Source: a virus. From it: DNA of 64,000 nucleotides. Within the stretch, counting starts at the first letter, position 1. Each line of letters opens with the position of its first letter. The stretch lies in the IMG/VR virus record IMGVR_UViG_3300050139_000358, positions 7,459 to 71,458 of that record; one strand, given 5' to 3'. This document shows, one piece after another, positions 16,528 to 19,069 of this stretch. The translations under genes were made by a program, and so were the position numbers. The notes under the pieces were generated by a model. That model worked only from the letters and a program-made list of their open reading frames with translations. It made no database searches and had not been told where the DNA came from.

Positions 16528-17064
16528 ATGAATGCAGTCGCTGAACAATTAAAATTCACCAGCCTTGATAGCGCGGTCATTTCGGCTTGTGAAATGAATC
16601 CGGCGGATAGCGATGCGGCGGCGGAGTGCCTGTTAGGAATTCTTGCCCAGGATAAGCGGCTATATGACCAGTCCCACAACTACCTGATCGAAATAGCGGT
16701 CAAGGATCTGGTGAGCAGCAAAATAACAGTGCAGCGGCGCGGGCTGTTCCGTGAAGCGCCGGTAAAAAATCAAAGTAATGCCTGCCTGCGCAAACTGTCG
16801 TCAGTCATAGCCGCTCGCGTCGGCCTGCTGAATTACCCGCTCAAGCGCGCTGGCAAGGTGCTGGCTGACGCGACCATTCAAGACCTGAAAGCAGAAGCCG
16901 CCATGCACCGGGCAAAAGCCAAGGGGAATACCAGCAAGGCTGCGTGGCTGGAGTCGATTGTCGAACACATGCAGCGCAAAAATTCCGCAACGGTGGCGGA
17001 TGCGCTTGACCATCAAGACTTGTACGGCCTCGCCATGAAGGCGGGCGTGAGCGACCTGGCTTGA
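16528..17064 (+). CDS. Hypothetical protein immediately upstream of the guide-like array
   Basis: GGAGGT RBS and ATG 16528. Its stop abuts the array. Confidence 0.75.
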   Translation: MNAVAEQLKFTSLDSAVISACEMNPADSDAAAECLLGILAQDKRLYDQSHNYLIEIAVKDLVSSKITVQRRGLFREAPVKNQSNACLRKLSSVIAARVGLLNYPLKRAGKVLADATIQDLKAEAAMHRAKAKGNTSKAAWLESIVEHMQRKNSATVADALDHQDLYGLAMKAGVSDLA

Positions 17065-17072
17065 TGATTTAC

Positions 17073-17483
17073 GAGCGGTGCGGCCGTCCCAGTCATGATG
17101 CCCAGTGTCTGATTGCCGAACTGCTCACCTTTTTGCTTGTTTCGGCCAAACTGCTTATGACGCCCAAAGGCCCGGTGTTGAGACAAGCAACCTTTTTACG
17201 GATGGCGGCCATTGGTTGTCTGATGCCCAAGAGAAGCATGCCGTCATCCACCCGTTTTTACCATAAGGAGATTTCCATATGAGCGCAGTACAAACAGTTT
17301 CGAGAGGGAAGGCCAGTTTGGCACTGATGCCCATTGAATATGTGCCCACCCCCTCTCACCCTATTGGAGTCGTCGGCCATATCGCCATTGATGCCCACGT
17401 TGCAGATGCCGATGACTCCAACCATTTTGACGCGGACGGCCACAACCGTAGTGATGCCCTGGAATCCGCTGCCGCCCGCGTCA
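17073..17483 (+). ncRNA. TIGR-like stem-loop guide RNA array, 6 units with two 9-nt spacers each
   Basis: Units at 17073-17126, 17133-17190, 17200-17249, 17302-17357, 17364-17421, 17428-17483. Core GGCCA-N9-TGAYGCCCA-N9-TG, closed by unit-specific stems with G-U pairs. Confidence 0.85.
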
Positions 17484-18364
17484 CCCTGATCGATGCCATC
17501 CGTGAGCACTACCACCAGTTCAAAGACCTGCAAAGCGCGGAGACGCGCCTGACGTTGCAGATCAAGGCGCTGTGCCGCCGCGCGTGCGGCGAACAGGTGA
17601 AAGAAAATACGGAAGACGAGGAAGACAAGGCCGCCAAGACAAAGGCGGACAATGTGTATGCCGAGGTGGTCAAGTCCATCAAAGACGGGACGGAAGACGC
17701 TTTGAGCGCAGAGGCGCAAGTCGTGTCGCAAGTGGCGATCCCGCTGATGGCGGCGCGGGCCAGCATTCACCGCGCCAGCCTTGGCCCTAAGGGAGAGGGT
17801 GAAAAGCTGTGCAAGCAGTTGACGCACATTGTTCCGTTTGTCGAGTCCATTAAGGGGTTCTCCTATGGCGGGCTGTCGATGATTATCGGAGAGGCGGGCG
17901 ACTTATCCAACTACGCGAATCCGGCAAAGCTGTGGAAGCGCATGGGGCTTGCGCCATTCACCAAGGGCGATAGGGTTCAATGCGGAAAAACATGGCGCAC
18001 CGGGGGCGGGCTGAATGCGGAAGACTGGACAGCCTTCGGATATTCGCCGCGCCGCCGCTCCGTCATGTTTCAGATCGCCGACAGCATGATGAAGCACCAG
18101 ATCAGAACCGATAAGGACGAGGACGGCAAAAAGCTGGAAACATCGATCGCAACTGGGTATTACGGCGAGGTGTATTTGGCTCGCAAGCAGTATTTGATTG
18201 AGCGCAATAAGGGAGAAGGCTTAACTGTGCGACCTGCCGCAAAGATCAACAAAAAGAACGAAGCGACCTCGGTCAGTCTTGGGAAAATTCACCATCAGGC
18301 GAAGCAATTTACTGAAAAGCGTTTGCTGCTTGACCTATGGAAGGCATGGAACCAGCGCCCATAA
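17279..18364 (+). CDS. IS110/Nop-domain RNA-binding protein without nuclease domain (TasA-like)
   Basis: Coiled coil, then FVESIKGFSYGGLSMIIGEAGDLSNYANPAKLWKRMGLAP...GYSPRRRS...YLARKQY...KRLLLDLWKAW (Transposase_20/Nop-like). No DEDD RuvC or HNH seen. AAGGAG RBS. Confidence 0.8.
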   Translation: MSAVQTVSRGKASLALMPIEYVPTPSHPIGVVGHIAIDAHVADADDSNHFDADGHNRSDALESAAARVTLIDAIREHYHQFKDLQSAETRLTLQIKALCRRACGEQVKENTEDEEDKAAKTKADNVYAEVVKSIKDGTEDALSAEAQVVSQVAIPLMAARASIHRASLGPKGEGEKLCKQLTHIVPFVESIKGFSYGGLSMIIGEAGDLSNYANPAKLWKRMGLAPFTKGDRVQCGKTWRTGGGLNAEDWTAFGYSPRRRSVMFQIADSMMKHQIRTDKDEDGKKLETSIATGYYGEVYLARKQYLIERNKGEGLTVRPAAKINKKNEATSVSLGKIHHQAKQFTEKRLLLDLWKAWNQRP

Positions 18365-18442
18365 ATTAAAACGCCCCCATAAAATAATTATGAGAGCGCC
18401 CCCGACAAGGTGAATCTTAGCATAATTTTGAATGGAGGCAGA

Positions 18443-19069
18443 ATGTCGTTAACTTCAAATAGGGTAGATCAGGCCAATGTAGTCAAGAACATTGGTAAAA
18501 GGATGAGGGAGGCGCGCGACCTTTGCAATTTGTCGCAGAGCGTGGCCGCCAAGCGGTTCGGGTACTCAAACCCTTCGAAGCTGTCGAAGGTTGAGGGGGC
18601 GACCGATACCAACTCTGTCCCGTTGTGGCTGATTGTTGAGGCATCACGAATTTATGAAGTCTCGATAGACTACCTGTTTGGAGTTTCGGACGATTGGGAA
18701 ACAGGCGCCCGGATGACGCAAGAGCGCGATGTGTCCCAATGGCTGTTCAATACCTGGGAGAAGATGCGCACGCGCGATATGTCTGTGTTGAAGGAGCTAC
18801 ATAGCGACGTAGAGCTGATGGATAGGGTGACTACCCTGACGCTGGAGCACTTGGAAAACATTGACGCGGCGATGCGGCGTTACATCGAACTGAATCCGCA
18901 GTTTGAGGATATGCGGGGCGGTGTCAGGCTGGAGGCGACTATTGTTGAGGCTCTGGGTTATGCGCGCGAGTCCAGAAAGAAAATGGATCGGTTTCGCGGG
19001 AAGTGCAAAAACAGGGCGGCGGAAAGCAATCAACTGACGCTGTGCCTGGAATCAGAGAAGGAAGCTTGA
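18443..19069 (+). CDS. XRE-family HTH transcriptional regulator
   Basis: IGKRMREAR...LSQSVAAKRFGYSNPSKLSKVE...VSIDYLFG. GGAGG RBS. Confidence 0.8.
   Translation: MSLTSNRVDQANVVKNIGKRMREARDLCNLSQSVAAKRFGYSNPSKLSKVEGATDTNSVPLWLIVEASRIYEVSIDYLFGVSDDWETGARMTQERDVSQWLFNTWEKMRTRDMSVLKELHSDVELMDRVTTLTLEHLENIDAAMRRYIELNPQFEDMRGGVRLEATIVEALGYARESRKKMDRFRGKCKNRAAESNQLTLCLESEKEA

What the first reader, a model, noticed from the sequence alone, without database searches (positions are those of the whole stretch)
17073..17483. Hidden array of six dual-spacer guide-RNA-like hairpins (TIGR-type)
Seen: six units share a 36-nt core GGCCA-N9-TGATGCCCA-N9-TGCC, with minor variants in units 1, 2 and 6. Spacer pairs: TCCCAGTCA/GTGTCTGAT, AACTGCTTA/AAGGCCCGG, TTGGTTGTC/AGAGAAGCA, GTTTGGCAC/TTGAATATG, TATCGCCAT/CGTTGCAGA, CAACCGTAG/GGAATCCGC. 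All 12 spacers are exactly 9 nt and all differ. Each unit is closed by its own 10-14 bp stem, different in sequence between units but complementary and often with G-U pairs, which points to selection on RNA structure. Each is followed by ACC. Known: this CCA-N9-TG x2 layout matches TIGR (tandem interspaced guide RNA) arrays, related to box C/D snoRNAs and IS110 bridge-RNA loops, where the two spacers read opposite strands of one DNA target. Inference: the phage encodes six guides. I found no convincing 18-bp self-target in this window by eye, so targets may be in the host or competing elements.
Basis: partly seen in the sequence, partly recalled or inferred. Interest (0 to 1): 0.95.

Follow-up and report, generated by a model that had tools for sequence, protein, structure and literature searches.

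The report
Phage TIGR-TasA guide RNA array
A temperate phage from a peat metagenome carries six hairpin guide RNAs, each with two 9-letter variable segments, beside and inside the gene of a nuclease-free guide-binding protein; this is a genuine example of the TIGR-Tas systems published in 2025-2026, and its DNA targets remain unknown.

Summary
Six units GGCC[A/G]-N9-TGA[T/C]GCCC[A/T]-N9-TG[C/T][C/T] lie at 17082-17473 on the + strand and nowhere else in 64 kb. Each is closed by its own 10-14 bp stem, and the stems covary.

The adjacent 361-aa protein (17279-18364) models as a coiled coil plus a Nop domain. Solved TasR and TasH are its best structural matches (Z 14.5-15.3), ahead of IS110 recombinases (Z 12). 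No nuclease domain was found, so it is a TasA.

Units 4-6 lie inside the 5' end of the gene and encode a disordered tail. A model built from the six units finds 105 more units in 42 of 71 related viral loci, 104 of them on the tas strand.

Close relatives keep the stems but have different spacers. The units meet the published stem-loop TIGR motif rules.

No target was found in the provirus, in three kin phages or in IMG/VR beyond chance.

Verdict: a new member of a known kind. This scan already holds 82 notes on such systems, from at least 60 genomes.

The parts
17073..17126 (+). tigRNA unit 1 (hairpin). Core 17082-17117, spacer A 17087-17095, spacer B 17105-17113; the first box C is the variant CCG.
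17133..17190 (+). tigRNA unit 2. Core 17144-17179, spacers 17149-17157 and 17167-17175; loop TGACGCCCA, end TGTT paired through G-U.
17200..17249 (+). tigRNA unit 3. Core 17207-17242, spacers 17212-17220 and 17230-17238.
17264..17281 (+). In-frame stop TAA (17264-17266), AAGGAG ribosome-binding site (17265-17270) and ATG start of tasA (17279-17281), lying between units 3 and 4.
   Evidence: (read directly)
17302..17357 (+). tigRNA unit 4, inside the tasA reading frame. Core 17311-17346, spacers 17316-17324 and 17334-17342; the stem has an asymmetric internal loop.
17364..17421 (+). tigRNA unit 5, inside the tasA reading frame. Core 17375-17410, spacers 17380-17388 and 17398-17406.
17428..17483 (+). 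tigRNA unit 6, inside the tasA reading frame. Core 17438-17473, spacers 17443-17451 and 17461-17469; the second box C is the variant CCT.
17279..18364 (+). tasA, 361 aa. Residues 1-55 are a disordered tail; units 4-6 encode about residues 8-69. Residues 57-180 form a coiled coil (predicted dimer interface 80-98 and 151-170). Residues 182-358 form the Nop domain. No nuclease domain was found.
16528..17064 (+). 178-aa gene of unknown function that ends 8 nt before unit 1. It is a possible partner: homologues lie directly upstream of the array in the nearest relatives.

Best explanation
This is a stem-loop type TIGR-TasA system carried as an accessory cassette in the early-right (nin) region of a lambdoid temperate phage.

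How it most likely works (inferred, except where a call is cited):
- The + strand transcript, probably read through from the early operon, holds six hairpins.
- Each hairpin is a tigRNA: a unit-specific stem closing a 36-nt core in which two 9-nt spacers are each framed by CCA (box C position) and UG (box D position), separated by the 9-nt loop UGAUGCCCA.
- A dimer of the nuclease-free TasA binds one tigRNA through its two Nop domains.
- Spacer A pairs with one DNA strand and spacer B with the adjoining 9 nt of the other strand. The target should therefore read spacerA + reverse complement of spacerB.
- Having no nuclease, the complex binds and bends the DNA and blocks transcription or replication, rather than cutting it.

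Three guides are written inside the first 70 codons of tasA. Cutting them out would destroy that mRNA, which would couple guide production to TasA synthesis.

Shown here: the anatomy, the fold, the family-wide association, the covariation and the spacer turnover. Inferred from published relatives: processing, binding, repression and the target geometry.
For: Anatomy and chance:
- Six units on one strand only, with stems that covary.

Protein:
- The AF2 model has pLDDT 86.
- Foldseek's ten best chains are TasR 9mty and TasH entries.
- VIA-align gives Z 15.3 to TasR residues 112-302, Z 14.5-15.1 to TasH, Z 12.1-12.6 to IS621/ISCro4, Z 8.0 to Prp31 and Z about 7.7 to Nop56/58.
- NCBIfam TIGR_Tas_endo matches residues 183-357 at E 2.2e-14.
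- No DEDD or HNH family appears in Pfam.
- The homodimer model scores 0.60 against a best control of 0.00. The mark was reached by 20 of 30 proteins solved as pairs and 1 of 23 solved as single chains; the runs share at least 96% of contacts; partner pLDDT is at least 85; the interface lies on the coiled coil. Like complexes are solved, so this pass may reflect likeness to them.

Family association:
- Model R2 gives 189 hits at E<=1 in 80 viral loci that encode relatives, 188 of them on the tas strand.
- At E<=0.01 there are 105 hits in 42 of 71 loci, 45 of them in the open frame 5' of the conserved core.
- There are 0 hits in 90 kb of kin phages without tasA.
- Across those units the box columns carry 1.2-2.0 bits and the spacer columns 0.01-0.2 bits. 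The stem is 96.3% paired and 10 of 11 pairs are compensatory; the alignment was fitted to the model, so it leans that way.

Spacer turnover:
- A contig about 88% identical in run X2 differs at 20 of 36 spacer positions of units 1-2, against 8 of 94 other positions.
- Proteins 88, 83 and 68% identical (alignment A4) match the residues encoded by spacer bases at only 29, 8 and 21%, against 87, 74 and 63% for the other array-encoded residues.

Published rules and biology:
- Stem-loop arrays: Faure 2025, PMC12045711, section 9.
- Box sets CCA/CGA/CTA/CAA and TG/CG, stem of at least 5 bp, 9-nt loop, intragenic units, and TasA as repressor: Xu 2026 preprint, sections 5, 7, 11, 12 and methods passages.
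- PlTasA forms nine base pairs per spacer: Guan 2026 preprint, passages only.
Against: - There is no RNA evidence of any kind for this locus.
- No target was found for any guide.
- The NCBIfam score (54 bits) is below that model's curated cut-off of 100. The model is named for the endonuclease forms.
- The CUU motif reported at processing sites is exact after only 2 of 6 stems; the others read CCCG, CCCUA, CCAU and CCCUG.
- Units 1 and 6 each carry a one-letter box C variant.
- No sigma-70-like promoter or terminator of its own was found on the + strand.
- The target orientation A+rc(B) is my deduction from the 3' overhang stated in Faure 2025 section 7. It is not a printed rule.
Confidence: 0.88

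Rival explanations
1. The system is real, but TasA here is only the targeting module. The conserved upstream 178-aa protein (16528-17064) or the downstream HTH protein supplies the effect, such as interference, guide processing or spacer renewal, so the outcome is more than steric repression.
For: Homologues of the 178-aa protein were found only directly upstream of tasA arrays: 93% and 78% identical proteins on contigs whose lengths (2765 and 12730) equal those listed for the two nearest TasA relatives, 47.5% in L001 ending 2 nt before its first unit, and weak hits in 4 more of 80 loci. Faure 2025 reports another operon partner, TasParB, for some TasA.
Against: Only 5 of 80 related loci have it. 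It matches no family in Pfam or PHROGs; in NCBIfam only a 13-bit hit at E 0.065 to a mycothiol transferase model. It has no structural match (pLDDT 69, best Foldseek E 0.7). The HTH gene is also present at 60% identity next to TerS in kin phages that lack tasA, so it is not specific to the system.
Confidence: 0.12
2. The hairpins act mainly in cis, as attenuators, terminators or RNase entry sites that set the level of tasA and the downstream packaging genes, and the N9 segments are not guides.
For: Units 1-3 are each followed by a run of U (ACCUUUUU, ACCUUUUU, CCCGUUUUU). Units 4-6 lie in the mRNA 5' end. No separate promoter was found.
Against: The terminator scan lists none of them. A purely cis role does not explain two exactly 9-nt windows framed by invariant CCA/TG, their near-zero information content across 105 units in other loci, or the wholesale replacement of just these windows between close relatives. 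Nor does it explain the strict linkage to a Tas-fold protein.
Confidence: 0.04
3. It is a decayed or idle copy: the array and gene are recognisable but no longer work, for example because of the variant boxes or the loss of targets.
For: Units 1, 2 and 6 depart from the consensus. No target was found. Kin phages do without the cassette.
Against: The ORF is intact with a strong ribosome-binding site, and all 11 family-invariant residues are present. All stems pair, with G-U or compensated changes. In the X2 relative the changes at 17119, 17120 and 17122 strengthen the stem of unit 1. In a contig about 88% identical in run X4, 0 of 36 spacer positions of units 1-2 differ, which suggests constraint; the table was cut at 17179.
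Confidence: 0.06
4. It is a remnant of an IS110-type RNA-guided recombinase with bridge-RNA-like loops.
For: Weak Pfam Transposase_20 hit (E 0.0019, below threshold). PHROG 'transposase' hit at E 3.5e-4. VIA-align Z 12.1-12.6 to IS621/ISCro4.
Against: No DEDD/RuvC domain: residues 1-55 are disordered and 57-180 form a coiled coil. Tas structures score higher than IS110. There are six tandem single-hairpin units with two equal 9-nt windows, not one bridge RNA with two different loops. No inverted or direct terminal repeats of an element were noted around the locus.
Confidence: 0.02

Closest known systems
Stem-loop TIGR arrays with TasA: PlTasA from a Peromyscus leucopus gut contig (Faure 2025, PMC12045711, section 9; Guan 2026 preprint 10.64898/2026.08.11.744272, passages)
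   Same: A nuclease-free coiled-coil plus Nop protein. Tandem hairpin units, each with two spacers framed by box C/D nucleotides and closed by variable palindromic stems. Nine base pairs per spacer.
   Different: Here there are 6 units rather than 13. The loop is a conserved 9-nt sequence, the subtype Faure calls intermediate to dual-repeat arrays. Half of the units lie inside the gene. The host is a lambdoid provirus from peat. No experimental data exist for this locus.
Bifidobacterium longum BlTasA locus with intragenic tigRNAs (Xu 2026 preprint 10.64898/2026.09.09.750476, sections 5 and 11)
   Same: Guide units lie upstream of tasA and also embedded in its coding sequence without breaking the frame, in a disordered stretch.
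   Different: In BlTasA the embedded unit maps to the wedge loop. Here three units form the N-terminal tail, ahead of the coiled coil. The CUU boundary motif is exact in only 2 of 6 units.
MbTasA and catalytically dead TasR as RNA-guided transcriptional repressors (Xu 2026, section 12)
   Same: The same protein class, so this is the most likely activity.
   Different: Repression was shown with reprogrammed guides in E. coli. For this phage neither a target nor an activity is known.
Dual-repeat TIGR arrays with TasA/TasR/TasH (Faure 2025; structures 9mty, 9w03 and others)
   Same: A 36-nt core with 9-nt spacers, a 9-nt loop and tandem-spacer targeting. The Nop domain fold matches at Z 14.5-15.3.
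   Different: There are no edge repeats; each unit has its own stem of 10-14 bp. There is no nuclease domain.
IS110-family bridge RNA recombinases (IS621, ISCro4)
   Same: A related RNA-binding domain (Z about 12) and paired guide segments in RNA loops.
   Different: No DEDD domain, an array of six guides instead of one bridge RNA, and no mobile-element ends.

Membership tests
TIGR-Tas, stem-loop type | Associated protein has the Tas coiled-coil plus Nop-domain fold | tested here: met
   VIA-align gives Z 15.3 to TasR 9mty_A (rmsd 2.5, 186 aligned) and Z 14.5-15.1 to TasH. These stand above IS110 (Z 12) and unrelated coiled coils (Z 10 or less). Foldseek's top 10 chains are all TasR or TasH. 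NCBIfam TIGR_Tas_endo matches at E 2.2e-14, which is below its curated cut-off.
TIGR-Tas, stem-loop type | [quoted passage not shown] | tested here: met
   The rule is taken from the methods text of Xu 2026. Ten of the 12 intervals are CCA-N9-TG; the other two are CCG (unit 1) and CCT (unit 6). The gap is 4 nt in all six units.
TIGR-Tas, stem-loop type | Each unit is closed by a palindromic stem of at least 5 bp whose sequence varies between units | tested here: met
   The stems are 10-14 bp. They are 93.9% paired, 6 of 11 pairs are compensatory, and 0 of 500 shuffles reach the score.
TIGR-Tas, stem-loop type | Array on the tas strand, beside or inside the tas gene | tested here: met
   Three units lie upstream and three in codons 8-69. 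In relatives, 188 of 189 hits are on the tas strand.
TIGR-Tas, stem-loop type | Spacers vary while boxes are conserved across loci | tested here: met
   Spacer columns carry 0.01-0.2 bits and box columns 1.2-2.0 bits over 109 units. Close relatives differ mainly at the spacers. In one relative (X4) units 1-2 keep the same spacers.
TIGR-Tas, stem-loop type | Units are transcribed, processed to unit-length RNAs and bound by Tas | not testable with these tools
   No run on record as RNA holds the stretch.
TIGR-Tas, stem-loop type | CUU motif at the base of the stem, at processing boundaries | tested here: inconclusive
   The motif is exact after units 1 and 2 (ACCUUUUU); the other four have C-rich, U-rich variants. 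The family consensus 3' of the stem is CA-CCC/U-UUU.
TIGR-Tas, stem-loop type | RNA-guided binding of a DNA site matched by both spacers on opposite strands | not testable with these tools
   No site better than chance was found. Binding itself needs a bench test.
TasA subclass | No HNH or RuvC nuclease domain | tested here: met
   Pfam lists only a weak Transposase_20 hit. The model has a disordered tail, a coiled coil and a Nop domain, and nothing else. The alignment to TasR begins at its residue 112, after the RuvC domain.
IS110 bridge-RNA recombinase | N-terminal DEDD (RuvC-like) catalytic domain | tested here: not met
   There is no Pfam DEDD_Tnp_IS110 hit. Residues 1-55 are disordered and 57-180 form a coiled coil.
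Box C/D sRNP guide RNA | Canonical C (RUGAUGA) and D (CUGA) boxes at the ends, forming K-turns | tested here: not met
   The ends read GGCCA and UGCC. Only the loop holds UGAUG. The consensus box sequences are recalled, not taken from a call.
CRISPR array | Identical direct repeats of 25-36 nt separating single spacers of similar size | tested here: not met
   The longest shared blocks are 5-9 nt, and the stems differ between units.

The most novel reading that the evidence does not exclude
In phages whose TasA is 83-88% identical, the same orthologous hairpins (same unit-specific stems, same boxes) carry entirely different 9-nt spacer pairs, even where the unit is part of a translated reading frame. 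In another relative two units keep their spacers unchanged. This pattern would mean that spacers are exchanged in place as precise 9-nt cassettes by a dedicated mechanism, rather than by gain or loss of whole units. The 178-aa gene that travels with the array in this subclade would be a candidate for that function or for guide processing.
Probability: 0.15. Interest if true: 0.75.

Novelty: new member of a known kind. Interest (0 to 1): 0.35.

Why it matters
TIGR-Tas systems were described only in 2025, and their natural targets, the way spacers are renewed, and their role in phage biology are still open (Faure 2025 discussion; Xu 2026 discussion passage).

This locus is a clean natural case:
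- It is a small six-guide TasA cassette in the variable nin region of a lambdoid provirus.
- Kin phages have the same packaging genes but lack the cassette.
- Near relatives show spacer replacement inside conserved hairpins.

That makes it a convenient system for asking what a phage gains from a nuclease-free RNA-guided DNA binder. It adds no new principle.

Tried and rejected
Self-targets. I scanned the whole 71-kb provirus for each guide in both orders with gaps of 0-2 and the array masked. The best scores were 13-15 of 18, the same as shuffled spacers (13-16).

Late-promoter idea. Another first-reader note lists six late-promoter motifs, matching the number of guides. No guide matches anywhere at 16 of 18 or better, so there is no support.

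Kin targeting (a lead from earlier notes). Three whole kin records plus three fragments (170 kb) gave 4 sites at 15 of 18, against 3.8 expected from shuffles.

IMG/VR exact 18-mer scans. In the order A+rc(B), guides 1-5 gave 2, 7 (one element seen seven times), 4 (two independent), 4 and 3 hits. The control order for guide 1 gave 5 hits (three independent). Hit contexts have GC 35-59% and no similarity to the provirus. This is chance level.

TasA as the phage's Q-like late regulator. Kin phages with 86% identical TerL and the same HTH-TerS-TerL block have no tasA in 45-53 kb records. Those records are 50-60% complete, so absence is not proven.

Expression. No RNA holder is listed for the stretch.

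Host. No tRNA or obvious host flank was found. The nearest isolate-phage TerL is 36% identical, from a Xanthomonas phage. Only 1 of 50,697 GenBank phage records holds a TasA relative, at 26%. The best match in species-representative genomes is 41%, in a Marmoricola MAG.

Other negatives. Rfam has no family for the region. The PDB sequence search found nothing. The 178-aa neighbour has no family and no structural match.

What I could not see. Supplementary tables of Faure 2025 (table S1, list of tas loci) and the TIGRSafari resource may already list this IMG/VR locus.

Full report
OBSERVATION. A strict pattern for the 36-nt core finds six matches at 17082, 17144, 17207, 17311, 17375 and 17438, all on the + strand. 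It finds none elsewhere in 64 kb on either strand. The twelve N9 segments are all different.

Each unit folds into a hairpin whose outer stem has 10-14 pairs. Z-scores are -2.2 to -4.6 per unit and -4.1 for the whole 441 nt. The stems differ in sequence between units but keep pairing. On the ungapped six-unit alignment, 93.9% of cells pair and 6 of 11 pairs show changes on both sides. No shuffle out of 500 reaches the covariation score, and registers slid by 1-3 columns pair at only 32-56%.

A covariance model built from the six units (R2) was run without filters. It scores them at E 1e-11 to 1e-18, and the next hit in the window has E 0.34. An earlier model, R1, had a miscounted structure line and was not used. 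The window is bases 7459-71458 of a 71,458-base IMG/VR provirus record, and that record holds the same six units and no others.

THE PROTEIN. ORF 17279-18364 begins at the first ATG after an in-frame TAA, 8 nt behind AAGGAG. Units 4-6 therefore lie within codons 8-69.

Pfam gives only a sub-threshold Transposase_20 hit, and the PDB sequence search gives nothing. The word-indexed protein search finds 946 relatives, most sharing only about residues 70-361.

An AlphaFold2 model from a 60-sequence alignment has mean pLDDT 86. Residues 1-55 are disordered, residues 57-179 form three long helices, and residues 182-358 form a compact domain.
- Foldseek's ten best PDB chains are the TasR-tigRNA-DNA complex 9mty and TasH complexes, followed by IS621 and ISCro4.
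- VIA-align gives Z 15.3 to TasR residues 112-302, that is, after its RuvC domain. It gives Z 14.5-15.1 to TasH, Z 12.1-12.6 to IS110 recombinases, Z 8.0 to Prp31 and Z about 7.7 to Nop56/58.
- NCBIfam's TIGR_Tas_endo model matches residues 183-357 at E 2.2e-14, with 54 bits against a cut-off of 100.

No nuclease domain was found, so the protein is a TasA.

A two-copy model pairs the coiled coils (residues 80-98 and 151-170) with a score of 0.60 against a best control of 0.00. The mark was reached by 20 of 30 proteins solved as pairs and 1 of 23 solved as single chains. The runs share at least 96% of contacts, and the partner pLDDT is at least 85. Tas dimers are already solved, so this pass may reflect likeness rather than independent evidence.

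WHAT IS KNOWN. From Faure et al. 2025 (PMC12045711) I read the outline, sections 4, 6, 9, 10, 24 and 44, and passages.
- Besides dual-repeat TIGR arrays, there are stem-loop arrays in which two 8-12-nt spacers framed by box C and D nucleotides sit in a hairpin with a variable palindromic stem.
- One subtype has an intervening sequence of conserved length and sequence.

From Xu et al. 2026 (bioRxiv 10.64898/2026.09.09.750476) I read the outline, sections 5, 7, 11 and 12, and methods passages.
- The search rule is box C from CCA/CGA/CTA/CAA, 9 nt, box D TG/CG, two such intervals within 15 bp, and a stem of at least 5 bp.
- The loop is mostly 9 nt.
- A CUU motif marks processing sites.
- TasA and dead TasR repress transcription in a guide-dependent way.

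From Guan et al. 2026 (bioRxiv 10.64898/2026.08.11.744272) I read passages only. They report PlTasA structures with nine base pairs per spacer.

MEMBERSHIP. The units here fit the rule. Ten of 12 intervals are CCA-N9-TG; the other two are one-letter variants. The gap is 4 nt, which makes the 9-nt loop TGATGCCCA. The stems are 10-14 bp.

My simple re-implementation allows mismatches only and no indels. It passes units 2, 3 and 5 outright. Unit 4 has perfect motifs but an asymmetric internal loop. Units 1 and 6 fall under the published relaxed phase. Random windows give a mean of 0.14 units.

RELATIVES. In 80 IMG/VR loci that encode relatives of the protein, R2 finds 189 hits at E<=1, and 188 are on the tas strand.

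After I dropped 9 loci as duplicates of others (by their identical rows in the tables), 105 hits at E<=0.01 fall in 42 of 71 loci. Their positions are:
- 45 in the open frame 5' of the conserved core;
- 20 further upstream;
- 2 straddling the start of the open frame;
- 23 downstream;
- 9 internal or 3';
- 5 other;
- 1 on the other strand.

Across all 109 aligned units the box columns carry 1.2-2.0 bits and the spacer columns 0.01-0.2 bits. The stem is 96.3% paired and 10 of 11 pairs are compensatory, on an alignment fitted to the model.

The nearest accessible locus, L001 (protein 49-55% identical), has the same layout: a homologue of the upstream gene, one unit, a ribosome-binding site and ATG, then three units in the reading frame. 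Its loop is TGTTACCCA.

Two routes helped.

(i) Contigs of coded runs X2 and X4 lie on 16927-18400 at about 88% identity. The difference table was cut after 17179, so only units 1-2 are covered.
- In X2, 20 of 36 spacer positions differ, plus indels, against 8 of 94 other positions. Several of those eight restore the consensus boxes or strengthen the stem of unit 1.
- In X4, 0 of 36 spacer positions differ, against 5 of 94 others.

(ii) At protein level (alignment A4), I counted identity to P0002, P0003 and P0004 by residue class.

Residue class | P0002 | P0003 | P0004
Codons that touch a spacer | 29% | 8% | 21%
Other array-encoded residues | 87% | 74% | 63%
Rest of the protein | 92% | 90% | 72%

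So orthologous hairpins keep their stems and boxes while their spacers are replaced.

The repeated DNA is also read in different frames: unit 4 is in one frame, and units 5 and 6 in another. The repeat is therefore a nucleic-acid feature, not a protein repeat.

CONTEXT. PHROGs identify a P-like helicase loader (13604), NinB (14556), an HTH regulator (18410), TerS (19071) and TerL (19870).

Five IMG/VR contigs have TerL 85-86% identical.
- They contain no R2 unit.
- Three whole records of 45-53 kb contain no TasA; these records are 50-60% complete.
- They share NinB, the HTH gene (60%) and TerS.
- Between NinB and the HTH gene the kin locus L120 has about 1 kb of small ORFs, where this phage has about 3.3 kb including the cassette.

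The system is therefore an accessory module, not the lineage's late regulator.

No sigma-70-like promoter or terminator of its own was found on the + strand. Read-through from the early operon is the likeliest source of the transcript; this is inference.

TARGETS. Faure 2025 states that cleavage leaves 3' overhangs. From this I deduce that a site reads spacerA followed by the reverse complement of spacerB, with 0-2 bp between. I tested both orders where I could.
- In the provirus the best scores are 13-15 of 18, equal to shuffled spacers.
- In 170 kb of kin phages there are four sites at 15 of 18, against 3.8 expected.
- Exact scans of IMG/VR for guides 1-5 give 1-4 independent hits each, like the control order, in unrelated contexts.

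No natural target is identified. One post-hoc curiosity is listed under Noticed in passing.

VERDICT. The locus is a new member of a published kind, stem-loop TIGR-TasA with intragenic guides. This scan already holds 82 notes on such systems, from at least 60 genomes.

The mechanism given rests on homology to characterised TasA systems. Nothing about RNA, binding or biological role was measured here.

Noticed in passing
window 17552-17562 compared with 17397-17407: Spacer B of unit 5 with one flanking base on each side (11 nt) recurs inside tasA, in the codons of the highly conserved TLQIK motif. With a 2-bp gap the adjoining bases match spacer A at 6 of 9, giving 15 of 18. That is the same 9+6 pattern as the fortuitous E. 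coli site reported for TasR. A score of 15 is common by chance genome-wide. I estimate about 0.03 for such a hit falling inside tasA, judged post hoc. The nearest relative has other residues at the unit 5 spacer positions, so this is probably chance and at best a weak autoregulation lead.
   Followed up: partly
window 16528-17064: A 178-aa gene of unknown function ends 8 nt before unit 1. Homologues were found only directly upstream of tasA arrays: 93% and 78% in the two nearest relatives, 47.5% in L001, and weak hits in L076, L005/L006 and L049. That is 5 of 80 loci. It has no family and no structural match.
   Followed up: partly
window 17061-17282: A 73-aa ORF with a TTG start runs through units 1-3. 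It overlaps the stop of the upstream gene and the ATG of tasA by 4 nt each (another first-reader note). In both relatives laid, position 17061 reads G, giving GTG, which is still a start codon and is synonymous in the upstream gene. L001 has only one upstream unit. Whether the ORF is translated is open.
   Followed up: partly
L120, L124 (records G001, G002), L123, L125 (G004): Kin phages with 86% identical TerL, 60% identical HTH gene and NinB lack tasA and any unit. The cassette sits in a variable slot between the nin genes and the HTH-TerS-TerL block.
   Followed up: yes
L113-L119 (seven IMG/VR contigs of 4.4-8 kb): Guide 2 in the order A+rc(B) with a 1-bp gap matches exactly in one small AT-rich-flanked element that is present, nearly identical, in seven contigs from different records. 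I counted it as one independent hit at chance level. The nature of the element was not examined.
   Followed up: partly
window 17087-17175 in run X4: A contig about 88% identical overall keeps all 36 spacer positions of units 1-2 unchanged, while a second relative (X2) has replaced them. This suggests either constraint on these guides or recent exchange of that part of the array. The table was cut at 17179, so units 3-6 could not be compared.
   Followed up: partly
L001/L127 (record G005:6141-7049): The tasA relative there is reported with one in-frame TGA inside a 406-aa open stretch. This is probably the TGA of a unit upstream of the true start, but I did not resolve it.
   Followed up: no
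window 18410-19069: An XRE-type HTH protein lies directly upstream of TerS and is conserved in kin phages without the TIGR system. It has a weak RstR-family hit in NCBIfam. It is likely a phage regulator independent of TasA.
   Followed up: partly
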